From: a virus
Virus record (IMG/VR): IMGVR_UViG_3300018036_000004
Coordinates: 38,477-102,476 of that record
Length of the DNA: 64,000 nt
Direction: 5' to 3' (one strand)
A program made the position numbers and the translations under genes. How positions within the stretch are numbered: position 1 is the first letter of the stretch; each line of letters opens with the position of its first letter. This document shows positions 5,885-62,478 of this stretch, in pieces. The notes under the pieces are model-generated. The model was given only the letters and a program-made list of their open reading frames with translations, made no database searches and was not told the origin of the DNA.

Positions 5885-8800
5885 TTACAAACTAGAACGA
5901 ACATTGAAAGTAATTACAATGTAGATCAATGGGAACACTGGTTGGTAGTAGGCTTCCACTTCGATAGCCGTTGCATCCGTTTCAGATACTTTAGCACTAG
6001 CAGGAATAAAGGTAGCAATAATTTGGTTACCCACAAGTCCTTTAAGAGTAGCGTTTAACTGACCCTCGATTTGACTTGTAATCCCTGGTAAGAACTTAAT
6101 ACCAATGAAACGATCCAAAGTAGCACGGGCTTGTCTTTGAACTTCATCTGCAATAGTAATAACAGAAGGAGTTCTAGACAAAGTGTTAGTCATGTCTGTT
6201 GTAAGACCGTGACGAACAGAAATAACCTGTCTGTCTTGTCCAATAACAGTCACACCTCTAACGGCCACTTGGTTTTGTGCTACAGCATCTAACTTACGAG
6301 CAACTTCATCAAATCCAACAATACGACCACGAGTCCAAGGAGTCGCAACATCAATTGTAGGACTTGCTCTGTTACCAGCCCAAGCGGCTGCTACATAAGT
6401 ACCATCCACCAAGTAAGACTTAACAGAACCATCCGCTGCAGTTAAAGACAATGTAACAATGTCCGGATACATAATTCTCAAACGAGAACGTTTAACGGCT
6501 TCTGCTATATTACCGACCTGTCTAGGTTGTGTTCCAGCACTAACACCAACAATCGCAGTTCTTTCCGCACGATAACGAATAGAACTTTGAATGTCACAAT
6601 GTCTAGCCAAGTATTGGAACATTGGTAAACTATCACCCCGCATAGGAACAATGTAGTTAGGATAAATACCACCAGGTAAAGACCCTTCTACTTCATCGAT
6701 AGCCTTAATGTAAGCGTCAATAGAAGCAGAGTCCGGAGTACCATCGTTGTTAATGTCTTCATCCTTTTCTACTTGTTTAATAGCAATGATTACGGCACCA
6801 TTCAAGAACGCTAAGTAAGCACCTAAGGAAACAGGATTAGAAGGAGTCTTTTCACCAAACGCTTGTTCTACAGTCGCTTGTTTAGTGTAAATCTGACTAC
6901 TAAAATCTTGTTTACGATAGTTGTACGACACATAGTAGATGTCTCCTACACTAGGTTCATTTCCACCACTTGCATAAGTAGTAACAACAGCCGAGTCTCC
7001 AACATTAACACCTAAAGTATTAGAAACAATTGTTTCTACTCCCGGTAAAGTATTAATAGGAAGATTGGAGTCTGTTGTAACAACCTTACGAAGTTTGAAA
7101 GTGAAACTTTCACCTGTAGGATAACTAGCGCCACCAGGTCTTGGTAAAACAGTAAAAGTCAAACCAGTAACTAAGTCACGATAGGTTTGTCCAACATTAC
7201 CATCTTGTCCATTACCACTATTAAGTACAGAAGTATTAGCTGAACCCGAACCGTCAATAGGATCAGAAGATGTAACATAGAAACCATCTATGGATGGTTC
7301 ACCAACATTACCTTCTCCACCAGTAACACCTAATCCAGTACCAGGTCTTGTTACAGAGTCTACAGCGGCTTCTACAATAGCAATAGAACTAGAAGTTCCA
7401 ACACCAGAAGTACCTAAACTTTGTAAGTACAAGAACTCTCCACCAACACTATCACGAATAGTTTTAGCAATACCCACTTTAGTAAAGTAAGCAGACGCAC
7501 CACCATCTGCCCAGTCGATTAAGTGCAATGCTATAGACGCTTGGTCGTGTGCCAAAAGAGCACTAACCAATGTTTCCACTTCTACAACAGTTCTAAATAC
7601 TTGTTCACCGGTATTGAATCCAAGTGTGTCGTTAGCAGAACCATTACCAATAGTAATAGAAGCATCTGAACTAGAACTAGCACCACGGAAACGGATACCC
7701 ACACCTTCTTGCATTACCAATCCACTAGCCAAACCTTGAGCAACCATGGCCGCTTGGATTTGGTTTAAGACTGTATTCGCTGTACCAATAGGACCTAAAG
7801 GAACATCTGCAGATGTTGTAATAGCACCGCCAGTACCGTCTGTAAACTCAATAGTTACAGGTACACCTTCGAAAGTAAACTTAAAGATGTTACTTTGTGG
7901 GTTAGTTGAACTTGGACCATAGAAAGTTACTAAAGGTTGTCCACTACCGTCTTGTCCACCTTCAAGTCCAATGTGTGAACTAATAGTAGGTTCCATAACT
8001 GTACCACGAATACCACTAACACCAATTTCGTTAGAAGTAAGACCACAGTTATTGTTTCCACTACCACCTAAGACTTGAATAAAGGCTTGGTCTTGAACAT
8101 ATTGTCCATCCATAGAACCAGATTTTCCAGGTACAAGGCGGTTACGAAGAATAAGTCTATCATAACGCTTTTGTCCTGAGGCACCTGTAAGTGAGAACAC
8201 ACGAGCAATTTTACCATTAACAAGTTTGGCTTGTCCACCTTGTGCACTGTCAGTATCGAAACCTGCTAACACAGCAAAGTCACGAGCAGGAGTTCCATTA
8301 GTTACAAACTCCAAGAAACCACCGTCAGTATCTGTATGATCTGGAATCAAACTAAATACTAATCTTCCACTAGTATCGGCTTCTACTGTAATAATACAGG
8401 AAAGACCCGCTACACCAACTGCTGTGTTTACTGCAGTTTGAATAGCAGATACTAAGTCACTTACAGAACCATAAGTACTTGCGGGAATTGTGACAGAGAT
8501 TGGAACAGAACCTTTAACGGAACCAGTGTAGTTAAGTTCAATTTGATCAAACTCACTCGCACTGATAACAGTAGGAGCCAAGAACTGTGTTACTCCAGTA
8601 ATACTAGGAGCAGCATCTGGATTGTACAAGTGGAATACAGAAGTAGCATCGAAAGTACCACCATCAAGTGTTAACACACCATTAACAGAGGCTGTAACAG
8701 TTCTAACTGTAGTACTTACACCAGTACCTCCTGTACACACAAGTTGCCAGCCTGCATACAGATTATCTGTATCACAAGGCATTTCCGAAGCGGGAATTGT

Positions 8801-11035
8801 AAGTGTGTTAAGACCACCCGCACTCGCTAATGCAAAGATACCTAAGGTGGCTTGGTTAATAGCTAAAGCATAGTAACCAACATCTACAGTACCTGTAGCG
8901 ATACAAGCCATAATAAGTTTACCATCAACAATAAACTCTAAGTTCTTATTAGTTTCGTCTACTACATAAGTAGTGTATCCACTAGAGGCTGTATACACAA
9001 TCTCATTACTCACAAGTTGTGCGTGTATACCGCAACCTGCACCTGTTGGATCACTTAAGTCCACAAAGCCACCAGTAACAGTAGACCCTTCAAACTCTAC
9101 ATCAAAATGGTCAGAACCATTAGAGATAAGATAGTAAGGACCTGTACCTGGTACAGTGTATTTAGCCAATGTTGCATCTTGACTGTCGAATGTAACAGTT
9201 ACATCTTCTTCTACTGAACCTTGATAGAAGTTAGTATTAAAAGGTGTTTCTACACGACAATCAGGAAGTCTTTCTGTACCACTTGGAAACTGTAATTCGA
9301 TAGTAGCCAACCCACTGGACTTAGATCCAAATTGTGGTGTTACTAAGGCATTACTGTTTTCGTCTGTGATAGTATAAGTACCAACACCACTTGCTCCAGC
9401 CGTATTACTAACAATAGAGTACTCTAGGTCTACTAATGTGTTGTAATAGAATGTAGCGTATACTGTGGCCCCTACAGGTACTGCTTGTGCTAAAGTGATA
9501 GTATTGGTTTCACTATCAACCTTAGTTACTTGTACACGACCACGATTAACAGCGTCTTCTACAGAGAATCCCCAATAAGCCCAAACCAGGTCTGGTCTAT
9601 TGGTTGGAAGATCGTAACGACCATTAGATACTTTGTTGTATGTATCAGAAGACAGAGGAGTATTTCTACCATTACCCGTTGTGGCTTGTAAAGGTAAAGT
9701 GAACTCTTTACGACCTTCTACTGCAGGAGAAGTTGCTGTATTTACAACGGCTGTACATTCTGCTAAGTATTGTCTAACATCTACCAAAGAAGAGGTAACT
9801 TGTGTTCCATCGAAGAAGTTGTAACCCAAAGTGTGAACACCAGACTCAACAGTACTAGCAGTACCCCAAAGGATTAAGTCGTCCTTTAGAATAAAGTCCG
9901 CACCGGCTGTGTAATCCTGACGATCTGGTGTAATACCACATTGTGTGATTTGAGTAACACCACGATGTGCCAGATAATCAAAAGTGTCCTGCCAAGAGTT
10001 AAAGTAATACTGACAAGATACAGTATCTCCAACCTTTGGAGCGAAAGGTAAAGTAATAGCACCAGATTGTCCATCTACTGAAGTAGGGATTACTTGGATA
10101 CCGTTTACTTTAACTGTTACATCCGCGGGATCTGTTGAGGTAATACCACCATTAGAACCATCTACGATAGGTCTTTGGAATGTGTAGAACACATTATTTC
10201 TTGGAGTAGTTTGTCCTAGAGTAAGTCCTAATGTAGTATTAGCAGACCCGTTAAGGATTTCAATACTATTATCAGCACTTAATACTACAACAGTGTCTCC
10301 AAAGTTATTAACTGTAGTAGAACCACTTAAAGAAGTACTACCACTACCACCATTAATAAAAGCAGCGATTTGAGCGGCTGTCCAAGGAGCGCCCGCGGCA
10401 CTTGGAAGAATTGTAATGTCCAAAGTAGTTTGGTTATCTACCAAGATTTTAAGAGTGTCGTTTACACCTTGTGTGATTACAAAAGGTTCACCTTTTGCTC
10501 CGTAAATAATAGGTGCTTGGGATGTAACTTGTTCAGACAAGTTATCCGTAATCAAAGTGTCTGTTCTATTAAAGAAGTAAGTAACTCTTACTTCGTCACC
10601 TAAACTAGGAGAAGTAGAAAGTTTTAAAATACCTTTAGAACCGTCAATAGCCAGAACTACTACGGGTTCATTATTAATAGTTACAGAAACACTACCGGTA
10701 TCTTTTGCAGTAGTTCCTGAACCGTCTCCTGTTACAATAGGAAAATGTTTAACTTGAATACGATCCAAGTTACCATCAAAAGCACCTAAAGTTACATTAC
10801 CAGTTTGGGAAATACTAACAACAGCACGACCTGTTTCATCTTCTTGAACAATGCGTTGGTCTACTGAAGAAGAAGAACCACGAACAAGTTCAAGTTGATT
10901 TTGTGTTAAGATTTCAGAGCCCGTTCCTACCAATAAAGGAATACGGACATTAGAGGCCACACCTTGTAAAGGGTCCTCAAAGTTTGTTTGGGTATACACA
11001 CCGGGAGGGGCGTATATAGAACCTGGGAAAGTCAT
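5885..11035 (-). CDS. contractile tail sheath protein, very large (1716 aa)
   Basis: N-terminal YAPPGVYT; C-terminal sheath domain (ERTAIVG, YVAAAWAG, IEVEAYYQPVFPLIYIVITFNV); AGGAG RBS. Confidence 0.85.
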   Translation of the reverse strand: MTFPGSIYAPPGVYTQTNFEDPLQGVASNVRIPLLVGTGSEILTQNQLELVRGSSSSVDQRIVQEDETGRAVVSISQTGNVTLGAFDGNLDRIQVKHFPIVTGDGSGTTAKDTGSVSVTINNEPVVVLAIDGSKGILKLSTSPSLGDEVRVTYFFNRTDTLITDNLSEQVTSQAPIIYGAKGEPFVITQGVNDTLKILVDNQTTLDITILPSAAGAPWTAAQIAAFINGGSGSTSLSGSTTVNNFGDTVVVLSADNSIEILNGSANTTLGLTLGQTTPRNNVFYTFQRPIVDGSNGGITSTDPADVTVKVNGIQVIPTSVDGQSGAITLPFAPKVGDTVSCQYYFNSWQDTFDYLAHRGVTQITQCGITPDRQDYTAGADFILKDDLILWGTASTVESGVHTLGYNFFDGTQVTSSLVDVRQYLAECTAVVNTATSPAVEGRKEFTLPLQATTGNGRNTPLSSDTYNKVSNGRYDLPTNRPDLVWAYWGFSVEDAVNRGRVQVTKVDSETNTITLAQAVPVGATVYATFYYNTLVDLEYSIVSNTAGASGVGTYTITDENSNALVTPQFGSKSSGLATIELQFPSGTERLPDCRVETPFNTNFYQGSVEEDVTVTFDSQDATLAKYTVPGTGPYYLISNGSDHFDVEFEGSTVTGGFVDLSDPTGAGCGIHAQLVSNEIVYTASSGYTTYVVDETNKNLEFIVDGKLIMACIATGTVDVGYYALAINQATLGIFALASAGGLNTLTIPASEMPCDTDNLYAGWQLVCTGGTGVSTTVRTVTASVNGVLTLDGGTFDATSVFHLYNPDAAPSITGVTQFLAPTVISASEFDQIELNYTGSVKGSVPISVTIPASTYGSVSDLVSAIQTAVNTAVGVAGLSCIITVEADTSGRLVFSLIPDHTDTDGGFLEFVTNGTPARDFAVLAGFDTDSAQGGQAKLVNGKIARVFSLTGASGQKRYDRLILRNRLVPGKSGSMDGQYVQDQAFIQVLGGSGNNNCGLTSNEIGVSGIRGTVMEPTISSHIGLEGGQDGSGQPLVTFYGPSSTNPQSNIFKFTFEGVPVTIEFTDGTGGAITTSADVPLGPIGTANTVLNQIQAAMVAQGLASGLVMQEGVGIRFRGASSSSDASITIGNGSANDTLGFNTGEQVFRTVVEVETLVSALLAHDQASIALHLIDWADGGASAYFTKVGIAKTIRDSVGGEFLYLQSLGTSGVGTSSSIAIVEAAVDSVTRPGTGLGVTGGEGNVGEPSIDGFYVTSSDPIDGSGSANTSVLNSGNGQDGNVGQTYRDLVTGLTFTVLPRPGGASYPTGESFTFKLRKVVTTDSNLPINTLPGVETIVSNTLGVNVGDSAVVTTYASGGNEPSVGDIYYVSYNYRKQDFSSQIYTKQATVEQAFGEKTPSNPVSLGAYLAFLNGAVIIAIKQVEKDEDINNDGTPDSASIDAYIKAIDEVEGSLPGGIYPNYIVPMRGDSLPMFQYLARHCDIQSSIRYRAERTAIVGVSAGTQPRQVGNIAEAVKRSRLRIMYPDIVTLSLTAADGSVKSYLVDGTYVAAAWAGNRASPTIDVATPWTRGRIVGFDEVARKLDAVAQNQVAVRGVTVIGQDRQVISVRHGLTTDMTNTLSRTPSVITIADEVQRQARATLDRFIGIKFLPGITSQIEGQLNATLKGLVGNQIIATFIPASAKVSETDATAIEVEAYYQPVFPLIYIVITFNVRSSL

Positions 11036-13906: not shown

Positions 13907-14571
13907 ACAGGGTCATCTTTAAAGGGTGTTTAAGTAAGGTTTTTTACAGTCGATAGTTTGTTGGAACTTTTACCTTTAGGATTCCTTTGGTTTCATTATC
14001 TATATCCCAACCAAGACCTCCCCTTCGTTCAACATCAAATGCTCTCGACCAGTCTTCCATATCCTCTAGAAAAGTATTATAAAAGTTATCACGGTCACGA
14101 CCAAGATTGTACAATGTCCCAGAAGATGTAGTGATAGTGTATTCGAACTGCACATAAGGCATTCTATTCATTTCTATAATTTCGAAATCACTTACAACCT
14201 GTAATTCACGACGGTTTCGGCCGCGGCTATAAGACCTAGCTAATGTTGTAACCTTGTCCCGAACCAAGTCTAACCACTGTTGGGGTGTTCCAGCATCACT
14301 TAACCTTTCAGTTTCCGCTTGTAAAAATGTCTTATACCCTTCTAAGTGTCCTAGTAAGTTATCCTTTTCTCTTCCAGTCTGACCACGCATATAGTGCTTC
14401 AAAGTTTCTAAGGCTGAAAGTGTTTCCCTTATATTTATTAATTGTTCCTGTTTAGAAGCCAGTTTCTTTAATTGTTGAACTTCTTTAAGAAGTTGTTTTG
14501 CTGTTAATTTTCTCATGTGTTAACTCCTAGTTAACCTATTAAATTAATGTTTGCAAACATACATGGTCATC
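13895..14571. repeat. 23-bp direct repeats (13895-13917, 14549-14571) flanking gene 13944..14516
   Basis: GTTTGCAAACATACA(G/T)GGTCATC, one mismatch. Confidence 0.85.
13944..14516 (-). CDS. leader-A protein (putative internal head protein)
   Basis: MRKLTAKQLLKEVQQLKKLAS leader; AGGAG RBS. Confidence 0.7.
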   Translation of the reverse strand: MRKLTAKQLLKEVQQLKKLASKQEQLINIRETLSALETLKHYMRGQTGREKDNLLGHLEGYKTFLQAETERLSDAGTPQQWLDLVRDKVTTLARSYSRGRNRRELQVVSDFEIIEMNRMPYVQFEYTITTSSGTLYNLGRDRDNFYNTFLEDMEDWSRAFDVERRGGLGWDIDNETKGILKVKVPTNYRL

Positions 14572-15234
14572 CTAATATGCGTCTTTATTGTCTAGGTAAT
14601 TCATTAGAATTTTTGGTGCTTCTTTATCAAACACAGATTTAAAATGTGTAAAACACTTATCCATCGACTCATCTATATTTGGAGTAAGAATATTTTTCTC
14701 AACATCGTAAGGGTCTTGAAACAACCCGTAAAAATCACATTCGCTCTTATTGGTCCCATCTCTTGCGATCACATAATTGAACAAAATGAAATCACGACCC
14801 ACGACTAACTTCATCTCTACATGTCCCCAAGCACCTTTACCCCCTATATTAGATTTTATTTTCCAATCTAAACCTGTTTTCTTAGCCCAATTTTCCATAT
14901 AAGACAGGATTTTACCATAGGTGTCTTCAATGGCTTGTTTAGCGTCTTGGTCACATTCAGAACCTTGTTTCCACCAATCTATACAAACCTTTTGTTTTTG
15001 TACTCGAATAGGCTGTGTTCTTGTATAGGTGACATAGGCTATGTCACCTTGAACATTAATGTCTTCGATATAATGTTGTGAGACATGCTGAGCAGCCCAA
15101 GACTCTACTTGACCCAACAGGTCTTCTTCGTCTTCGTAAACGAAAACATAATCTTCTAACCAGTCTTTAGAGGCCAGTTTCTTTAATTGTTGAACTTCAA
15201 GAAGAAGTTGTTTTGCTGTCAGTTTTTTATTCAT
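14572..15234 (-). CDS. leader-A protein (putative internal head protein)
   Basis: MNKKLTAKQLLLEVQQLKKLAS leader. Confidence 0.7.
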   Translation of the reverse strand: MNKKLTAKQLLLEVQQLKKLASKDWLEDYVFVYEDEEDLLGQVESWAAQHVSQHYIEDINVQGDIAYVTYTRTQPIRVQKQKVCIDWWKQGSECDQDAKQAIEDTYGKILSYMENWAKKTGLDWKIKSNIGGKGAWGHVEMKLVVGRDFILFNYVIARDGTNKSECDFYGLFQDPYDVEKNILTPNIDESMDKCFTHFKSVFDKEAPKILMNYLDNKDAY

Positions 15235-49899: not shown

Positions 49900-50422
49900 A
49901 ACTTGGGTAATCCTTCAGTTAACTCCTTATGGGGAAGCCTTAGCTGAAAAGGGTGAACTGTATTCCAAACTTCGTAGGAGTATTCCTAGGGAAAAGGAAA
50001 TCTTTATACCATACCATCGAATAAACTTCCAAGGAAAAATTACAAAGTTAAATGTGTTAGAGGGTTATTGTTTTGTAGAATCGGGTCTACCAGAAAATGA
50101 TTACTTTAACTTTGGCTTAGAAAATTACATTGAAGATGTTTTACATAGTAAAAGTAGTAAGAGAGGTCCTATTACTTTACAGACTGTAAGGGATGTAGAT
50201 GTGCAAAAATTAAAAGACAGTCTACAAGAAATGCTAAGCCAAGACTTACAAGAAGATATGAGTGTAACTATTACAAGTGGTATCTACAAAGGTTTAGAGG
50301 GTAAGGTTGTAGGCTTTACAGAAGATAGGGGTGAGGCTTTTATTTATATAAGTTTAAGATCTTTAAAAGCCATCCGAACTGTTCCTACAATACTTTTAAC
50401 TACGGAGGTAGAGGATGTCTAA
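49883..50422 (+). CDS. NusG-like transcription factor
   Basis: IFIP...GYCFV NGN domain; KOW motif VTITSGIYKGLEGKV. Confidence 0.75.
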   Translation: MERDGKTWVILQLTPYGEALAEKGELYSKLRRSIPREKEIFIPYHRINFQGKITKLNVLEGYCFVESGLPENDYFNFGLENYIEDVLHSKSSKRGPITLQTVRDVDVQKLKDSLQEMLSQDLQEDMSVTITSGIYKGLEGKVVGFTEDRGEAFIYISLRSLKAIRTVPTILLTTEVEDV

Positions 50423-51020
50423 GTATTGGAGTAACTTTGTATATTTTGACAGCCATGACTTTGAAGGAATGTTTTCCAACGAAGACGGTATACATAACTT
50501 TCCTACATACAGTGAAGTCTTAGACGAAGACTCCCAAGAGAAATTAGATAGTATTAGGGAAGTGTTAGAAGAATTACCACCAAGGGAAGCCGATTTTATT
50601 GACTTGTACTTTTTTAAAAAAGTAACACAGTTGGGTATAGCAGACTTGTTTGGTGTTTCTCAACCTACAGTATGTTATAGGTTAGCTAAAGCCGCTAAAA
50701 GATTAAGTTACATAATTAACACACCAAACTATCCTATTAGTAGTGTGGAAGAAGACTTGAGGGGTGTGTTAACAGACGAGTTGGACATTAATATAATGTT
50801 GTTAATGTTACAAAAAACTTGTCAGTCAGAAGTAGCCCGAGAATTAAATGTTTCACAAGGATTAGTTCGTTATAGGTTTATGCGTAACTTAAAACAAATT
50901 AAAAACTTTAAGGATTTAGATAAAACCATAAAGTGTTTAGAGCATGTGTCTAATCACTTTAACATTCTAAAAGACACTAACAGATCAAAACTAGAAGAGT
51001 CTATTACTTATTCCTTATAA
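50415..51020 (+). CDS. protein with two sigma-70 region 4-like HTH domains
   Basis: LPPREADFIDLYF...TQLGIADLFGVSQPTV and CQSEVARELNVSQGLVRYR. Confidence 0.7.
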   Translation: MSKYWSNFVYFDSHDFEGMFSNEDGIHNFPTYSEVLDEDSQEKLDSIREVLEELPPREADFIDLYFFKKVTQLGIADLFGVSQPTVCYRLAKAAKRLSYIINTPNYPISSVEEDLRGVLTDELDINIMLLMLQKTCQSEVARELNVSQGLVRYRFMRNLKQIKNFKDLDKTIKCLEHVSNHFNILKDTNRSKLEESITYSL

Positions 51021-51816: not shown

Positions 51817-53418
51817 ATGAATAGACAACAAAAAGAAAACCTTAAAGGTCTACTAATGAGTGGAGACAAGGGTTCCATTAATCAAGCACTATCTTTGATG
51901 GATGCTTTAGATATGGCTACACAAGAAAAGGATAGTGAACTTATAAGAGAAGTTACTAATTACCTTTATGAGGAGGGTAGTGTAGACAACGATTACTTCG
52001 AACGCTCCCAAACTTTAAGAAAAGAAATGGTTCGTTTTAAAGGTGGTGTGGTTAAGGATTTAGTGGACTTTGTAGACGAAGTTGTACATGGTTGTTGGAA
52101 GGGTCCAAAAGGTAACAAACCTACAGGTTCCGCAATGCATAGTGAAAAGACTGTTTTTAATACAGATGAACTGGATTTTCTTTATTCTGTACAAGGTGAT
52201 TATAGTGCTGAAAGTCGTAACTTCGGAACGGCTTATAATTTTGTGAATTGTTTAAAACAATCCTTAAAACAGTATGGTCTAATACAAAAGGATGATCAAG
52301 TATACGCCCGCTATGATAGGGAAGACTTCATGTTTGAAGTAAGCTTAGACTTAAAGCAGATTAACTTTAATAAACTAAAATTAGCAAGTACAGGGAGTGA
52401 TACTATGCGAAAACTAGCTAGAACGGAACGTAAAAAAGGTATTGAGGTTTGGGTTTCCCGTAGAACAACAAACTTTCCAAAAAATGTAAACGATAAAAAG
52501 TATTGGCAAGGATACTTAGAGATGTTAGCAGACGTTCATGAATGGGATGAAGACGTTTATGAGCAGATGAAGATAGAAACCGACGAGGACGTGCTTTTAG
52601 AGAATATAAAACTAACCGATATAAACGACCTTGGAGACAATGCTATATTGACTTTCGATGTGGATGTTTCGTTTAATGATTCTTATTATAAACACGCAAG
52701 GAGTAATACTATGCGAAAATTAACTAAGAGACAAGCAAGTCGTAAACTGGATGAGTTGTACGGTCAACTCACTAACAATAAACAAGCCTATCTAACTAGA
52801 AGAGCAAAAACTGAAACCGTAAAGTTCACTATGGACTTTAATGAGATGTTTTCGTATGCCCAATTACGAGGTCATGATATAACTGATAGAGGTGTTATTG
52901 AGGGATTAATAATCCCTGAGTGGCAGGTAGAGGAAAAGGCTGAAGACTTTGTTATGGGTAATTATGGAGACGTGGATTGGGAAATCTACACTACCAAAGT
53001 TAAAGGAAGACCTAGAATTGACTTACATGCTGTAAGTCAAGGATATGAAGATTGGGAGATGGATGATAGCCACTATGGTGGTACCGTTTCTGGAACACTG
53101 GAGGTAACCCTTCATATTTCTGACGATAATTCTTCAAGACGTGCTCGTTTCTCTGAAGGACCCGAAGGTACAAAAGAGTTCGAAAAGTGGAAAGCCGAAC
53201 AACCCGAAGAGTTCCAAGAAGAATGGGATGCTAATACTGAAAAGTACAAAGATAAGTTTAAACAAGCCAAGTTAACTCGTAGACAAGCAAGTCGTGCTTT
53301 AGATCGTTTACATGCACAAGTTGTAGGTACTAAGCGTACAGCAAGTTCTAGAATGACTAAACGTCAGGCCTCTAGAAAGTTAGACTTGTTACACAAAAAA
53401 CTTACTACTAGACGATAA
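51817..53418 (+). CDS. multi-module (polyprotein-like) putative internal head protein
   Basis: Leader-B N-terminus; three (K/R)xT(K/R)RQASRxLD repeats; two internal RBS+ATG sites. Confidence 0.7.
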   Translation: MNRQQKENLKGLLMSGDKGSINQALSLMDALDMATQEKDSELIREVTNYLYEEGSVDNDYFERSQTLRKEMVRFKGGVVKDLVDFVDEVVHGCWKGPKGNKPTGSAMHSEKTVFNTDELDFLYSVQGDYSAESRNFGTAYNFVNCLKQSLKQYGLIQKDDQVYARYDREDFMFEVSLDLKQINFNKLKLASTGSDTMRKLARTERKKGIEVWVSRRTTNFPKNVNDKKYWQGYLEMLADVHEWDEDVYEQMKIETDEDVLLENIKLTDINDLGDNAILTFDVDVSFNDSYYKHARSNTMRKLTKRQASRKLDELYGQLTNNKQAYLTRRAKTETVKFTMDFNEMFSYAQLRGHDITDRGVIEGLIIPEWQVEEKAEDFVMGNYGDVDWEIYTTKVKGRPRIDLHAVSQGYEDWEMDDSHYGGTVSGTLEVTLHISDDNSSRRARFSEGPEGTKEFEKWKAEQPEEFQEEWDANTEKYKDKFKQAKLTRRQASRALDRLHAQVVGTKRTASSRMTKRQASRKLDLLHKKLTTRR

Positions 53419-53803: not shown

Positions 53804-54526
53804 ATGAAAAAACAATCAAAAGCAAATCTAACACCTAAAAGACAAATAATGGCATCTAACCAAAAGGAAAATAAAATGTCAAGAAAAATAACAGCCAAAG
53901 AACTTTTAAGAGAAGTCAGAACTTTGAAGAAACAAGCAGGTGAGAATCCTTGCGCCCCAAGACTAATTGAATACTCCGAAGATAGTGAGTTAAAGTCTCT
54001 GATTGAGCGAAGCATAGGACCAGATGGTTTGATGTATGGTTGGGGACACTTTACCTTGAAAAATATAGAGGTAGTGGATGGGATCGCGTACTTTGATGGG
54101 AACATTTCGGGTGAAGTCCCTGTTATGAAAGTGACCCCTTGGTTTGAAACTGCTAACCACCCACAAGTACAAAAAGCATTCAAAGAACTTGAGAAAGAAC
54201 TGAAGTCTTTTGTAGCGAAAAACGGTCTTTCCGATTTGAGGGTAGTCGCTAGTAACGACGATTATAACAGAAATGTAGACTGGATTACATCGGTTTCTAT
54301 CGTAGATAGCATAACGAATCGAAAGGTGTCCTTTCTTATAGGAGGGTGGGACACTGATTCAGCCGTTGTAGAGTCATGGTTGGGAGACCATTGGTCAAAG
54401 AAGTTCTCCGGAAATATAGATGCAGATGTTGCTATGGCAGTTTCAAATATGAGGAAGTTCATCAATAAAGACCTACTCCAGCAAGTATTAGAATCCAGAG
54501 CAAAGTTCGAAGCCAGAAAAAGATAA
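53804..54526 (+). CDS. leader-A protein (alternative start 53876)
   Basis: MSRKITAKELLREVRTLKKQAG. Confidence 0.7.
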   Translation: MKKQSKANLTPKRQIMASNQKENKMSRKITAKELLREVRTLKKQAGENPCAPRLIEYSEDSELKSLIERSIGPDGLMYGWGHFTLKNIEVVDGIAYFDGNISGEVPVMKVTPWFETANHPQVQKAFKELEKELKSFVAKNGLSDLRVVASNDDYNRNVDWITSVSIVDSITNRKVSFLIGGWDTDSAVVESWLGDHWSKKFSGNIDADVAMAVSNMRKFINKDLLQQVLESRAKFEARKR

Positions 54527-55421
54527 TCTTATGCGAAAACAATCTAAAGCAAATCTAACACCTAAAAGACAACGAACTCAATACTCATGTATGGCTACCT
54601 CAATGAGTATGTGTTTACAGGCCTTAGACTATCCACACGCTAATGAGGATGAAGTCAATAAGGTAATGGGTGCTTTACCGATGAGAGGGGCCGCTTGGGA
54701 ACAAGCTTTGGCATGTGCTCAGCATTATGGGTGTAGAGCCACATTAACAATGCCTTCTACAGTTAAGCAATTAAAAGAATGGACTGACCGAGGTGTTCCT
54801 GTAATGATTGCTTGGAACCCAGAGGGTCGTGATTGGTCTCATGCTTCTGTAGTCTTCGATGTAGATGAAGACTTAAATGTATATGTTGCTGACCCTAACA
54901 TTCCAGACCCAGATGAAACTGTAAGGGTTGTACCTAAAACAGAGTTCTATTCAAAGTGGTACGAGAAGTGGCCGAATTATCTAGTTCGTCGCCCTGCCTG
55001 CGCTATCGAGAGAGAAATAACTCCGGATGGGAGACAAATAATGGCATCTAAAAAGGAGAATAAAATGTCAAGAAATCCAGAAATAAGAAAAATTGCTCGA
55101 GAAATCGAATCTATTAAAGGTCAATTACAAGGCAAAACAGCAGGGACTTGGGATCTTGGAACAGAACTTTCTGCGTTGAAGAAAAACTCTGGAATCCATT
55201 TCAAGTTATCAGACAAGTTAATTGGGGAAGCCGTGGGAGAAGTGCAATTATACGAAGATTTGCGTAAAGGCTACAGCCTTTTAGATCAAGTAAAAGCGAT
55301 GTTGCAACAAACAATAGAAGAAATCGAATCCATGCAGAGAAAAATTAAGTCTGATAATGGCATCTAACCAAAAGGAAAATAAAATGTCAAGAAAAATAAC
55401 AGCCAAAGAACTTTTAAGAGA
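53846..55421. repeat. 68-bp exact direct repeat (53846-53913, 55354-55421); related partial copy at 55032-55075
   Basis: ATAATGGCATCTAACCAAAAGGAAAATAAAATGTCAAGAAAAATAACAGCCAAAGAACTTTTAAGAGA. Confidence 0.9.
54531..55367 (+). CDS. C39-like cysteine peptidase domain fused to a leader-A-like module
   Basis: QRTQYSC, WSHASVV, VADP triad pattern; then MSRNPEIRKIAREIESIKGQLQGKTAG. Confidence 0.75.
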   Translation: MRKQSKANLTPKRQRTQYSCMATSMSMCLQALDYPHANEDEVNKVMGALPMRGAAWEQALACAQHYGCRATLTMPSTVKQLKEWTDRGVPVMIAWNPEGRDWSHASVVFDVDEDLNVYVADPNIPDPDETVRVVPKTEFYSKWYEKWPNYLVRRPACAIEREITPDGRQIMASKKENKMSRNPEIRKIAREIESIKGQLQGKTAGTWDLGTELSALKKNSGIHFKLSDKLIGEAVGEVQLYEDLRKGYSLLDQVKAMLQQTIEEIESMQRKIKSDNGI

Positions 55422-56097
55422 GGTTCGTGCGATTAAAAAATTAGCCGCGGGTACAAGTATTCCATCGGTTTTTCCATCTATTACAAGACAATTAAACATT
55501 CCAGAAGGTGTACAGTTCCTTCCTGATGGTAGTGGTGAGTTTGAAATTATTACAGAAAACGGCGAACATATTTACGCTGTTTTAGGAGATAGTGGTTACG
55601 AAATTAGTGGAAAAGGTGCTAAGAAACCTTTTATTAAAGCAGACATTACTTTCGATGAAGAGGGTGAAGGTGTTACAAACGATCCTAAATCCATTGTGAG
55701 TGCTATTCAAACTATGTTAAACTGGTACGACAATGCTTTGTTAACCTCTATTAAAGACGACGAACTGGAAATGAGAAAACTTTTCTCTATGGCTTTTAAA
55801 GGTAGTAGAACCTTTGATTATGATAGTTGGTATAAAAAAGGTAAGATTTATATTATTACAGGTAAGTCTTACGGTATGCCACAGCAAGTTGTTGGTGGCG
55901 GCGGTATAGAGTTTCAGATCTATAGAGAGGGGGATAATAAGGCCAGTGTAAACGCTTTATACCCAGATAAAAGACGACATATGGGAACTTATATTGTTAA
56001 CAATGTCCAATGGACTGCTAATGGTGTTCCATTAATTGACCCACGAGAATTTAAAAAGATTTTCTCTAAGGTTAGCGCTAAAACTAAAAAATGGTAA
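55357..56097 (+). CDS. leader-A protein (probable start 55384)
   Basis: MSRKITAKELLREVRAIKKLAAG. Confidence 0.7.
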   Translation: MASNQKENKMSRKITAKELLREVRAIKKLAAGTSIPSVFPSITRQLNIPEGVQFLPDGSGEFEIITENGEHIYAVLGDSGYEISGKGAKKPFIKADITFDEEGEGVTNDPKSIVSAIQTMLNWYDNALLTSIKDDELEMRKLFSMAFKGSRTFDYDSWYKKGKIYIITGKSYGMPQQVVGGGGIEFQIYREGDNKASVNALYPDKRRHMGTYIVNNVQWTANGVPLIDPREFKKIFSKVSAKTKKW

Positions 56098-59905: not shown

Positions 59906-60583
59906 ATGAAACAGACCAAAGAAGAAAAACAACATATACTAGATAACTTACCTGAAGGTACGAGAAGGATACAAGTTGTTTCTCCTAATGGTAAACAACA
60001 GTATAAAAGACCGGACGAAGTGGATATAGACACAGATGAGATTTCTATAGCACCCACCGGAGCCCCTATTGTAATGAGGGGAAAACCTGGTCGTAAACCA
60101 AAAGTGGTTCGTAATGCTGTAACACCTCAAATCGCCCAAACTTGTCAAGCAAGAGACGAGCATGTTTCTGCTAATGAGTTGTCTAATACAATAAAAGAGG
60201 ACTCTAACTCTGATCGTGTAATAGAAAACATTCTATTAGAAATGGCTCAGGACGCGGCTACCATAGACTTTGAGAAAGACGAGGCTAGTAGAACGGGAGG
60301 TGATGTTAGTGGTTTACTAACAAAGAAAGCCCGTATCTTAAAAGGTATGTCTGATATATGGCTTCGTAAAAAGTCTTTAGATGAAGGTGGTATTATAGAC
60401 TTAGAGTCTGGTACTTTCGAAGCAGTGTTTGGTTTAATACTAGAAACTTTTAAGGAAACATTGTTAGAATCTGGTGTTCACGATGAACACATAGAAACTA
60501 TTTTCGCTAAGTTAGTAAGTAGTTTAGACGATCAGTGGAAGGAAGAAGCCAAAAGAAGAATGCGTCAAGAAAGAGGTAACTAA
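59906..60583 (+). CDS. putative terminase small subunit
   Basis: Helical protein coupled (TAATG) directly upstream of terL; positional inference only. Confidence 0.4.
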   Translation: MKQTKEEKQHILDNLPEGTRRIQVVSPNGKQQYKRPDEVDIDTDEISIAPTGAPIVMRGKPGRKPKVVRNAVTPQIAQTCQARDEHVSANELSNTIKEDSNSDRVIENILLEMAQDAATIDFEKDEASRTGGDVSGLLTKKARILKGMSDIWLRKKSLDEGGIIDLESGTFEAVFGLILETFKETLLESGVHDEHIETIFAKLVSSLDDQWKEEAKRRMRQERGN

Positions 60584-62478
60584 TGGGTTTAGGAGATTTA
60601 GCTGCCACTATTGGTAGAAGTAAGTCAACAGATAAAAGAGATCCTGTAGACATTATTACTTTTATTGAGGCTCCTTGGGGTTTAGGTTTAAAGTTGTTTC
60701 CAGTACAACGAGTTATACTTAAAACACATTATGGTATGACCTTAGACGACAACGAACTAGATTATCCTTTAGATGTACCTGTACCCGAAGATCATGAAAA
60801 CTATGACCCTGAGTTGATGGATAGGGATGGTTATTACAAGTATAGATTAGTTATTACGGACTTTAGAAGAGAGAATGTTCAGTACTTCACAGAGGCCGGT
60901 TACTTAAAGTACTTACATAGTGAAGGTAGATGTAATACAGATAAAGTAATACCAGGTGTACAAAGACGAGAAATGGTTTTAAGTGTGGGTCGTCGTTCTG
61001 GAAAAACACTTATTACATCTTGTATTGTGGCGTACGAAACTTATAAATTATTATTACTTGGTAATCCACAGAAACATTATGGGTCTTCACAGTCGAATGT
61101 TATACAGTTAATTTCCGTTGCGACAGATCAGGCACAGGCCTCTTTATTGTATAGGGAGGCTAGTGGACACTTCCAAAAGTGTGATTACTTTAAACCTTAT
61201 ACTGCGAATGCTACACAAAGTTACGCAACTTTTCAAACACCTTTTGATATAGAAACTTATGGTAGTTATTCTAAGAATCCAAAAGCCCGTTATTCAGTTA
61301 ATGTTACTTTTAGGTCTTGTGTGGCAAAAGGGCTTCGCGGGGGCGCTAACATTATGGTTGCACTGGACGAGGTTGCTCACTTTGGTGAACAAGGACAAGC
61401 CTCTGCAGATGAAGTGTATCAGGCTGTAGAACCTTCTACTAGAACCTTTTCTCCTAAGGACCCCTTAGACACTACAAAACCTGTTGGCGAGAACGAAGGT
61501 CGTATTGTTATGATTTCTTCTCCGTTAGGTAAACAAGGTTTGTTCTATAAACAGTTTGAGTTAGGTTTTGGTAATAACAAAGCGGCGGATAATCTTCTTT
61601 GTATACAAGCACCTACTTGGGAAGTAAACCCAACAGTACCCGCGGAAACCTTTGTGGCTTCTTACTTAAAAGATCCTAATGTTTTCTATACGGAATTTGG
61701 GGCTGTGTTTTCGGATAGAACTCGTGGGTGGATTCAAGACGCTAAAGACTTATTAGATTGTATAGATCCCGCTTTAAGAAAAAGAACATCTGGTTTACCG
61801 AAAGCACCTTACTTTATGGGGATAGACATCGCACTTGTAGGTGACTGGTGTGCTGTAGCAATTGGACATAACGATCAAAATGGTAATGTTGTTGTAGATT
61901 GTATGGAGCGTATTAAAGCCGGTGAGGGTAAGTACCAAGACTTAGAAAGATTAGACTTTGATGAGGTAGCGGATTGGATTACTAGTTTCACTAGTAGATT
62001 TTATATTAGAGAAGGTGTGTTTGACCAGTGGGTCGGTATACCAATGGAACAGGCTTTACAAAAAAGAGGCTTACCTCAGTTAAAGTCTTTACATCACACA
62101 AAACAGTTAACATCCCAGATGTTCCATAACTTAAAAAACTTAATGTTTGATAGTAAGTTAAAAATATATGATGAACCTACAGAAGAAGGACATGCCGATT
62201 ACATTCAAGAGTTGTTAGAGTTACAGGCCACACAGGTTAGTAAATATGTAATAGAAGTAGAAGCCCCACAGACAGAAGGTAAGCACGATGACTACTCGGA
62301 CGCCTTAGTTAGAATGTGTTGGTTGGCTACAAAGGATTCAAATAAAAAGGTTATCTTATCTGGTACTCGTGGAAATATATACTCAAGTGGTAATTCCAGA
62401 TTTGGAAGGTCTACTACAAAAACTCGTAGTGGGTCTCATGAGTCCAGACAATTACCTAGAAATAATAGGAGAAAATAA
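60583..62478 (+). CDS. terL: terminase large subunit
   Basis: LFPVQ, Walker A GRRSGKT, LDEVAHF, ISSP, FMGID, FDQW, HDDYSDA. Confidence 0.9.
   Translation: MGLGDLAATIGRSKSTDKRDPVDIITFIEAPWGLGLKLFPVQRVILKTHYGMTLDDNELDYPLDVPVPEDHENYDPELMDRDGYYKYRLVITDFRRENVQYFTEAGYLKYLHSEGRCNTDKVIPGVQRREMVLSVGRRSGKTLITSCIVAYETYKLLLLGNPQKHYGSSQSNVIQLISVATDQAQASLLYREASGHFQKCDYFKPYTANATQSYATFQTPFDIETYGSYSKNPKARYSVNVTFRSCVAKGLRGGANIMVALDEVAHFGEQGQASADEVYQAVEPSTRTFSPKDPLDTTKPVGENEGRIVMISSPLGKQGLFYKQFELGFGNNKAADNLLCIQAPTWEVNPTVPAETFVASYLKDPNVFYTEFGAVFSDRTRGWIQDAKDLLDCIDPALRKRTSGLPKAPYFMGIDIALVGDWCAVAIGHNDQNGNVVVDCMERIKAGEGKYQDLERLDFDEVADWITSFTSRFYIREGVFDQWVGIPMEQALQKRGLPQLKSLHHTKQLTSQMFHNLKNLMFDSKLKIYDEPTEEGHADYIQELLELQATQVSKYVIEVEAPQTEGKHDDYSDALVRMCWLATKDSNKKVILSGTRGNIYSSGNSRFGRSTTKTRSGSHESRQLPRNNRRK

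What the first reader, a model, noticed from the sequence alone, without database searches (positions are those of the whole stretch)
53804..55421. Domain shuffling caught in the act: a peptidase domain bounded by 6-bp microhomology, and a duplicated leader cassette
Seen: 53804-53845 matches 54531-54572 at 39/42 nt, and 53846-53913 equals 55354-55421 (68 nt). In gene 54531 the C39-like domain lies between two AGACAA hexamers (54567-54572 and 55032-55037), 465 nt or 155 codons apart and in frame. In gene 53804 the same flanks are joined directly across a single AGACAA (53840-53845): KANLTPKRQ|IMAS. Inference: in-frame loss or gain of a whole domain by microhomology, plus reuse of an RBS-ATG-leader block ahead of different cargo.
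Basis: seen in the sequence. Interest (0 to 1): 0.75.

Follow-up and report, generated by a model that had tools for sequence, protein, structure and literature searches.

The report
Phage peptidase swapping cargo via cassettes
In an uncultured large salt-marsh phage, a protein-cutting enzyme gene and three neighbouring cargo genes share one repeated junction sequence. Recombination there is re-sorting which cargo is fused to the enzyme, and a natural variant with a different fusion exists, so module shuffling is seen under way.

Summary
The locus holds a C39-like cysteine peptidase (gene B, 54531-55367) and three cargo genes. Each cargo is headed by the same unit: the peptidase's conserved C-terminal boundary (RQIMAS), a linker carrying a Shine-Dalgarno site and ATG, and an amphipathic tag helix ending in Ala-Gly.

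- **Stub:** gene A starts with 14 codons of the peptidase, up to its oxyanion-hole Gln, joined at a 6-nt AGACAA microhomology to that boundary. It is a peptidase remnant without its core. Orthologues of A in relatives lack it.
- **Gene conversion:** A and C share a 68-nt identical tract. It ends abruptly, and the next three conserved codons differ only synonymously.
- **Natural variant:** public assemblies hold a 415-aa protein exactly equal to the peptidase fused in frame to cargo C, with 319 nt (cargo B) deleted between two cassettes. A contig from one salt-marsh run carries the same junction.
- **Family pattern:** in about 50 related phage contigs (one a complete 436-kb genome) the peptidase is fused after the same boundary to unrelated cargo.

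The shuffling is shown. That the tag is a cleavage or docking signal is inferred, not tested. This scan noted the same peptidase-plus-tag theme on other genomes.

The parts
53804..53845 (+). Stub: first 14 codons of a peptidase gene, ending at the oxyanion-hole Gln, now the 5' end of ORF A
   Evidence: 39/42 nt identical to 54531-54572. The three differences are one synonymous change and one Lys/Arg codon. The N-terminal motif is conserved in all relatives' peptidases. It is absent from A orthologues.
53840..53845 (+). AGACAA junction, where the peptidase 5' end meets the peptidase 3' boundary
   Evidence: The same hexamer lies at 54567 and 55032, 465 nt apart and in frame. Chance p is about 0.002.
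53846..53913 (+). Cassette copy 1 plus the first 12 tag codons; 68-nt gene-conversion tract shared with gene C
   Evidence: 68/68 identity to 55354-55421. Codons 13-15 after the tract are all synonymous differences.
53876..54526 (+). A' = tag helix (22 aa, ends Ala-Gly) plus cargo A; probable independent start with SD AAGGAA 6 nt upstream
   Evidence: Orthologues P0122-P0126 (203-216 aa) start at this Met. SD usage.
54531..55040 (+). C39-like cysteine peptidase domain of gene B (Gln14, Cys20, His104, Asp121)
   Evidence: Pfam PF13529. These residues are invariant or over 90% conserved in 118 sequences. AlphaFold2 model has pLDDT above 90 over most of the domain. Foldseek TM 0.73-0.82, normalised to the target, against the PCAT1, LahT150 and ComA peptidase domains, and 0.54 against PeiR.
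55032..55064 (+). Peptidase C-terminal boundary (RQIMAS) plus linker with SD AAGGAG: cassette copy 2
   Evidence: The boundary motif is conserved in about 45 divergent relatives and followed by unrelated sequence. 20 nt are identical to 53840-53859.
55065..55367 (+). B' = tag helix plus helical cargo B, fused in frame to the peptidase; internal SD-ATG at 55065
   Evidence: P0002-P0004 keep the same fusion. The model shows long helices at residues 183-275.
55076..55394 (+). 319-nt segment (cargo B and cassette 3) missing from a natural variant, which fuses the peptidase in frame to cargo C
   Evidence: P0129 equals the translation of 54531-55075 plus 55395-56097 at 415/415 residues. Contig 9 of run X5 continues from 55075 into 13 nt of the A/C-type tag, and only in that run is the repeat node split at 53870.
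55354..55421 (+). Cassette copy 3 plus the first 12 tag codons. It is read in another frame by gene B, whose stop (55365-55367) lies inside it.
   Evidence: Relatives' B ends two codons after the last shared codon, without a cassette.
55384..56097 (+). C' = tag helix (ends Ala-Ala-Gly) plus cargo C; probable start at 55384 with SD, not at 55357
   Evidence: There is an SD before 55384 and none before 55357. No homologue was found other than itself and P0129.

Best explanation
This is a cargo-shuffling locus of a large uncultured myovirus-type phage. A C39-like cysteine peptidase ends in a family-wide boundary motif (RQ-V/I-MAS). In this clade the boundary is followed by a roughly 30-nt linker that doubles as a ribosome-binding site plus ATG. 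After that comes a conserved amphipathic tag helix ending in Ala-Gly or Ala-Ser, and then variable cargo. The same boundary-linker-tag unit heads three cargo genes in tandem (A', B', C'). The tag alone heads at least three more proteins elsewhere in the genome.

Shown: because the unit is repeated in direct orientation, recombination re-sorts the cargos.
- A 68-nt gene-conversion tract links A and C.
- A crossover between cassettes 2 and 3 gives a natural peptidase::cargo-C fusion lacking cargo B.
- A join at a 6-nt AGACAA repeat left a 14-codon peptidase stub in front of A'.

Inferred: the tag is a common handle that the peptidase, the head-assembly machinery, or both recognise. Cutting at the small-residue pairs (after MAS and after the tag's Ala-Gly) would free the cargo. 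Fused, split and stub-bearing forms would then all yield the same mature protein, so such rearrangements would be tolerated.
For: - **Repeats and frames:**
- **Family-wide boundary:** RQ(V/I)MAS is followed by unrelated cargo, with peptidase ORFs of 184-1147 aa, in 52 viral loci.
- **Active-looking peptidase:** the catalytic set is conserved and the fold is C39.
- **Stub is derived:** A' orthologues are free-standing, with their own SD, no stub and no cassette.
- **Conversion tract:** it has a sharp edge and synonymous divergence beyond it.
- **Natural variant:** P0129 is an exact 415-aa fusion, and run X5 carries a recombinant contig with a split repeat node.
- **Relative L001:** it has two cassette copies, one preceded by a remnant of the peptidase 3' end and flanked by a 46-nt duplication of the next gene's 5' end.
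- **Recurrent stubs:** peptidase N-terminal stubs sit on the upstream gene in L010 and in L016/L017/L048.
- **Translation signals:** SD-ATG is kept in all five cassette copies, ATG or GTG.
- **Tag elsewhere:** further tag-bearing genes lie at 13944-14516(-), 14572-15234(-) and upstream of the window.
- **Ala-Gly site:** it is kept after the tag at variable spacing in A', B', C' and relatives.
Against: - No cleavage, virion location or binding has been shown.
- The tag's spacing differs from the classical double-glycine consensus.
- In GC-rich relatives a related motif sits at C-termini. Some peptidases carry only a tag and no cargo (P0010, P0011). Both fit a docking handle better than a cleaved leader.
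- The top fold hit is a phage cell-wall endoisopeptidase, PeiR, so a lytic or effector role is not excluded.
- The route that produced the stub is unresolved. No peptidase::A' fusion was found among proteins of 132-420 aa.
- The genome context of P0129 could not be fetched.
Confidence: 0.72

Rival explanations
1. The stub did not come from deleting the core of a full second peptidase::A' gene. It came from one replication template-switch event. The nascent strand copied the first 42 nt of the peptidase gene, jumped at AGACAA to the peptidase 3' boundary and cassette, then returned to A' through tag homology.
For: All five A' orthologues are free-standing, and in L057 no peptidase lies upstream of A'. 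No peptidase::A' fusion was found. The start of A' in L057 and the stub share their first 10 nt. Every junction carries homology or microhomology.
Against: It needs three switches. The present sequence cannot distinguish it from duplication followed by deletion. The stub's amino acids match another peptidase allele (the P0006 type) better than gene B, which suggests an older or foreign copy.
Confidence: 0.3
2. The identical cassettes are held by selection on a nucleotide-level signal (translation-initiation region or late promoter), not by recent recombination.
For: The SD and start codon are conserved in five copies across two phages.
Against: Identity runs 38 nt into the coding helix and then stops, with three consecutive synonymous differences. 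An actual crossover product exists. L057's A' uses a different SD region.
Confidence: 0.1
3. The peptidase is not a processing enzyme for the tagged proteins. It is itself cargo (a wall-cutting or host-directed effector), and the tag is only a packaging or docking handle that is never cleaved.
For: PeiR endoisopeptidase is the best fold and sequence hit in the PDB. Some peptidases carry a tag and no cargo. Related motifs sit at C-termini in relatives. This parallels packaged effectors that carry the T4 capsid targeting sequence (PMC9026906).
Against: Small-residue pairs are conserved exactly at the domain boundary and after the tag. The fold is about as close to the double-glycine leader peptidases. 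Fusions to very diverse cargo are easier to tolerate if they are cut.
Confidence: 0.3
4. The repeats are an assembly artefact.
For: Short-read assemblers can mis-join at a 68-nt repeat.
Against: Four runs give the same graph, with twofold depth on the repeat and a single linear path. The exact proteins recur on 5-7 contigs.
Confidence: 0.02

Closest known systems
T4 internal proteins with the capsid targeting sequence (CTS) and prohead protease gp21
   Same: A short N-terminal propeptide is shared by otherwise unrelated, fast-evolving proteins. In T4 the propeptide targets them into the head and the phage protease removes it. The review PMC9026906 suggests the CTS may be an evolutionary route for packaging varied cargo.
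   Different: The peptidase here has a C39/papain-like fold, not the gp21 type. It is physically fused to cargo through the tag. The tag is a roughly 20-aa helix ending in Ala-Gly or Ala-Ser, not a site cut after Glu. Head targeting is untested.
Double-glycine leader peptides and C39 peptidase domains of PCAT/AMS exporters (ComA, PCAT1, LahT150)
   Same: Same fold and the same Gln/Cys/His/Asp set. Substrates carry an N-terminal amphipathic helix followed by two small residues. The start of the tag resembles the leader consensus (Leu, Ser/Thr, two residues, Glu-Leu).
   Different: There is no ABC transporter. The helix is longer, P2 is Ala, and the protease is encoded by a phage and fused upstream of its presumed substrate.
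Polymorphic toxin loci (CdiA-CT and Rhs with orphan modules)
   Same: A constant N-terminal part, a conserved junction motif and variable C-terminal modules. Downstream orphan modules keep the junction sequence, so homologous recombination swaps the module.
   Different: The proteins are unrelated and the setting is a phage. Here each orphan also has its own SD-ATG inside the junction, so it is expressed without being swapped in.
Short-repeat (microhomology) deletions and mosaic joints at domain boundaries in phage genomes
   Same: A 6-nt direct repeat lies at an in-frame deletion joint, and the boundaries coincide with a domain.
   Different: Here both parental flanks, the product and a second segregating rearrangement are visible in one population.
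PeiR/PeiW pseudomurein endoisopeptidases of methanogen proviruses
   Same: Best structural hit (E 2e-7) and the only PDB sequence hit (E 0.006); also phage-encoded.
   Different: About 20% identity. PeiR has its own wall-binding part and no tag or cargo fusion. The host of this phage is unknown.

Membership tests
Peptidase_C39_2 / C39-like papain-fold peptidases | Profile match above the curated cut-off | tested here: met
   PF13529: 37.3 bits against a cut-off of 24, E 5e-9, residues 12-123. Homologues also carry PF03412.
Peptidase_C39_2 / C39-like papain-fold peptidases | Oxyanion Gln six residues before the catalytic Cys, then His and Asp | tested here: met
   Gln14, Cys20, His104 and Asp121 are invariant or over 90% conserved in 118 sequences.
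Peptidase_C39_2 / C39-like papain-fold peptidases | C39 fold | tested here: met
   Model pLDDT 84. Target-normalised TM is 0.73-0.82 against the PCAT1, LahT150 and ComA peptidase domains.
Double-glycine leader / C39 processing system | Substrate leader matching the consensus, with cleavage after Gly-Gly/Ala/Ser | tested here: inconclusive
   The tag begins like the consensus and ends in Ala-Gly or Ala-Ser, but the spacing is about 6 residues longer. No cleavage data exist.
Double-glycine leader / C39 processing system | Peptidase fused to or paired with an ABC exporter | tested here: not met
   The peptidase is N-terminal to variable non-transporter cargo in all 52 loci.
CTS-type head-targeting propeptide system | The same N-terminal tag on several unrelated proteins of one phage | tested here: met
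   Six tag-bearing ORFs in the genome.
CTS-type head-targeting propeptide system | Tagged proteins are packaged and the tag is removed by the phage protease | not testable with these tools
   The phage is uncultured and no proteome or RNA run is available (one search lists DNA runs only).
Microhomology-mediated in-frame deletion | A short direct repeat at both parental sites and once at the joint | tested here: met
   AGACAA at 54567 and 55032, and once at 53840. Chance p is about 0.002.
Homologous recombination between direct repeats (segregating deletion) | A product that equals the reference minus the interval between the repeats, found in independent data | tested here: met
   P0129 matches at 415/415 residues. 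The X5 contig carries the junction.

The most novel reading that the evidence does not exclude
A clade of large and huge phages uses a C39-type leader peptidase, instead of or beside a classical prohead protease, as the hub of an evolvable delivery platform. Any protein that acquires the tag, at either end or by fusion to the peptidase, is recruited and trimmed. The dual-purpose junction (protein boundary plus ribosome-binding site) lets cargo switch freely between fused and free forms.
Probability: 0.3. Interest if true: 0.8.

Novelty: new variant of a known kind. Interest (0 to 1): 0.62.

Why it matters
Module exchange in phages is usually inferred from old mosaic joints. Here one natural population shows the substrate repeats, a conversion tract, a deletion scar and a segregating alternative fusion together, so rates and mechanisms can be measured directly. 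The work also defines a large, unannotated family of phage C39-like peptidases: over 550 homologues, all from metagenomes. Their fixed boundary motif and shared tag give a concrete, testable candidate for how large phages address and process accessory proteins. If cleavage is confirmed, the tag and peptidase would form a compact, self-contained module for protein tagging and release.

Tried and rejected
- **Complex prediction:** peptidase domain with the first 45 residues of A' gave no verdict (score 0.00, controls not run). This is neither for nor against binding.
- **Exact DNA pattern scans:** scans for the cassette in viral and metagenome contigs and for the recombinant junction in viral contigs found nothing.
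- **Similarity searches:** blastn against isolated phages found no match. PHROGs had no family for A, B, C or most neighbours. Pfam gave only a sub-threshold hit for A and nothing for C.
- **Cargo function:** cargo A, B and C have no relatives in the 52 loci beyond the tag. The protein atlas gave no usable hit for A' or C'.
- **A' in viral contigs:** none found.
- **Classical prohead proteases in five relatives:** PF04586 is absent, including from the complete 436-kb genome. PF03420 rang in no control genome either, so that search is uninformative. Neither shows that a classical protease is missing.
- **Depth:** the lower depth of cargo B in run X5 (4.6 against 7-9.5) is only a hint at the variant's share, because contig depths are coarse.
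- **Rejected idea:** the conserved Met of the boundary as an internal start. It is Val or Gln in many relatives and has no SD here.

Full report
**Observation.** Every number in the finding is correct.
- 53804-53845 matches 54531-54572 at 39/42 nt.
- 53846-53913 equals 55354-55421 at 68/68 nt.
- AGACAA lies at 53840, 54567 and 55032. The last two are 465 nt (155 codons) apart and in frame.
- Repeat searches add a 20-nt identity between 53840-53859 and 55032-55051, and a third, shorter cassette copy at 55038-55075.

The ORFs are A (53804-54526, 240 aa), B (54531-55367, 278 aa) and C (55357-56097, 246 aa). Gene B carries Peptidase_C39_2 on residues 12-123.

**Context.** The window is part of a 102-kb IMG/VR virus record from salt-marsh metagenomes. 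It encodes a large terminase at 60583-62478, a tail-sheath-containing protein and T4-like replication genes. It matches no isolated phage at the DNA level. Most of its genes have Shine-Dalgarno sites. The peptidase has over 550 homologues, all metagenomic, and 52 related viral loci. One of those loci lies on a complete 436-kb genome with terminal repeats.

**What the repeated pieces are.** Two findings reinterpret the repeats.
- *Peptidase N-terminus.* In the relatives the peptidase starts with a conserved N-terminal motif whose Arg-Gln lies six residues before the catalytic Cys. That Gln is the papain-type oxyanion-hole residue. Gln14, Cys20, His104 and Asp121 are invariant or nearly so in 118 sequences.
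- *Peptidase C-terminus.* The domain ends in a family-wide motif, Gly-Arg/Lys-Gln-Val/Ile-Met-Ala-Ser. After it the sequences become unrelated, and ORF lengths range from 184 to 1147 aa.

So the 14 codons at the start of gene A and the IMAS that follows them are the two ends of the peptidase domain, not an independent leader. The AlphaFold2 model (pLDDT 84) matches the PCAT1, LahT150 and ComA peptidase domains at target-normalised TM 0.73-0.82. It also matches the phage endoisopeptidase PeiR, which has the best E-value at TM 0.54.

After the boundary, this AT-rich clade has a linker that contains AAGGA(A/G), six more bases and an ATG (GTG in one L001 copy). Then comes an amphipathic helix that ends in Ala-Gly. 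Orthologues of cargo A in five relatives are free-standing proteins of 203-216 aa. They begin at that Met or at the equivalent Met-Lys-Lys. In locus L057 the orthologue has its own, different SD region and no stub or cassette. The likely functional genes are therefore A' (53876-54526), B with an internal start at 55065, and C' (55384-56097). Gene B's stop codon lies inside cassette 3, which it reads in another frame. Relatives' B proteins end two codons after the last shared codon, so the C' module with its cassette was added at the 3' end of B.

**Evidence for recombination.**
1. *Conversion tract.* Between A and C, the cassette and tag codons 1-12 are identical. Codons 13-15 encode the same residues but all differ synonymously, including AGA against CGT. 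Beyond that the proteins diverge. This is a recent conversion tract with a sharp edge, not purifying selection.
2. *Stub joint.* The stub joins peptidase position +42 to position +507 across a single AGACAA. Six or more nt of microhomology at a random joint has p of about 0.002. Because the two flanks are contiguous parts of one conserved domain in all relatives, the event was a loss of the core, not a gain.
3. *Natural variant.* The 90%-identity cluster of gene C contains P0129, a 415-aa protein seen on two JGI contigs. It is identical, at 415 of 415 residues, to the translation of 54531-55075 joined to 55395-56097. That is the peptidase fused in frame to tag-plus-cargo C, with 319 nt (cargo B and cassette 3) removed by a crossover between cassettes 2 and 3.
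4. *Independent support from run X5.* A 1205-nt contig follows the window from 53884 to 55075, including the base specific to cassette 2. It then continues for 13 nt with the A/C-type tag. Only in that run is the 68-nt repeat node split at 53870, as a third incoming branch would require.
5. *Point variant.* A Lys6Arg variant of the stub (P0128) matches a two-allele site at 53820 in run X6.

**Not an artefact.** In four runs the repeat is a separate 31-mer node at about twice the depth of its flanks. All four flank joints exist, and one contig links cargo A to cassette 3. The assembled order is therefore the only linear path.

**The pattern recurs in relatives.**
- L001 (peptidase 84% identical) has the cassette twice. 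One copy sits at the peptidase-cargo joint. The other sits before a free-standing gene, where it is preceded by a remnant of the peptidase 3' end. That whole insert is flanked by a 46-nt duplication of the next gene's 5' end.
- L010 and L016/L017/L048 have the peptidase N-terminus, through the catalytic Cys region, grafted onto the gene just upstream of the intact peptidase.

**How the stub arose is unresolved.** Either a second peptidase::A' gene lost its core, or one template-switching event copied the peptidase start and then jumped at AGACAA to the boundary. The free-standing state of all A' orthologues and the absence of any peptidase::A' fusion among proteins of 132-420 aa leave both routes open. 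The stub's residues match another peptidase allele better than gene B.

**Function (inferred).** The tag also heads two adjacent genes on the minus strand (13944-14516 and 14572-15234) and one gene upstream of the window. Ala-Gly or Ala-Ser follows the helix at variable spacing, and Ala-Ser ends the peptidase domain across the family. This suits a C39-type enzyme, which cuts after two small residues. If the peptidase cuts there, then fused, free and stub-bearing precursors all give the same mature cargo, which would explain why fusion and fission are tolerated.

Three observations argue against a pure cleaved-leader role and favour a docking handle like the T4 capsid targeting sequence (PMC9026906). 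Some peptidases carry a tag and no cargo. Related motifs sit at C-termini in GC-rich relatives. The best PDB hit is a wall-cutting enzyme. No cleavage, binding or virion data exist.

**Relation to earlier notes of this scan.** Other first-reader notes on this genome and on other genomes describe the same tag family and C39-like peptidases heading tagged proteins. I confirmed the extra tag-bearing genes myself and treat the rest as leads.

**Verdict.** The mechanism of shuffling (homologous exchange between direct cassette repeats, plus one microhomology joint) is well supported. The biochemical role of the tag and the peptidase remains a hypothesis.

Noticed in passing
window 51817-53418 (+): A 533-aa protein carries three copies of a basic motif (Thr-Lys/Arg-Arg-Gln-Ala-Ser-Arg, one residue, Leu-Asp), two of them at its extreme C-terminus. 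This may be another form of the tag. Parts of the protein match ORFs near the peptidase in L033, L034, L036 and L049.
   Followed up: partly
window 13944-14516 (-) and 14572-15234 (-): Two adjacent genes with unrelated bodies start with nearly the same tag, ending in Ala-Ser. Their tag-coding DNA looks nearly identical once a 3-nt offset at the start is allowed for (judged by eye, no gapped alignment run), as with the A/C pair.
   Followed up: partly
L001 7006-7051 and 7496-7541: A 46-nt direct repeat (93% identical) of the 5' end of the 166-aa gene flanks the inserted cassette-tag-cargo gene. It looks like a tandem-duplication or insertion joint.
   Followed up: partly
L010 4962-6011; L016/L017/L048 5073-6011: The gene upstream of the peptidase begins with a copy of the peptidase N-terminus through the catalytic Cys region, then switches to an unrelated repeat protein. 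L012 has that gene without the graft.
   Followed up: partly
L005-L010, L013 (large ORFs downstream of the peptidase): Many very large proteins (386-1415 aa) end in a shared C-terminal motif (Asp/Glu-Trp-Leu-Ala-Trp-Glu-Asp). Many small proteins end or begin with Arg-Val-Ala-Ser/Ala-Arg-Tyr/Phe-Leu.
   Followed up: no
window 50415-51020 (+): A 201-aa protein has sigma-70 region 4 (E 7e-13) and a second helix-turn-helix. It is a candidate phage late sigma-like factor, just upstream of this gene block.
   Followed up: no
window 5885-11035 (-): A 1716-aa ORF matches tail sheath only in its last roughly 350 residues, so the sheath has a very long N-terminal extension.
   Followed up: no
window 53820: An A/G polymorphism (Lys6Arg in the stub) is seen as two alleles in run X6 and as protein P0128 on two contigs.
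   Followed up: yes
L057 1-330: The contig starts in an ORF whose first residues (His-Gln-Val-Met-Ala-Asn) resemble the peptidase boundary motif. This may be another junction cut off by the contig end.
   Followed up: no
L006, L014 (about 2.4-4.4 kb): By eye, relatives appear to encode a GroEL-like chaperonin (535-561 aa) a few genes upstream of the peptidase. No family search was run on it.
   Followed up: no
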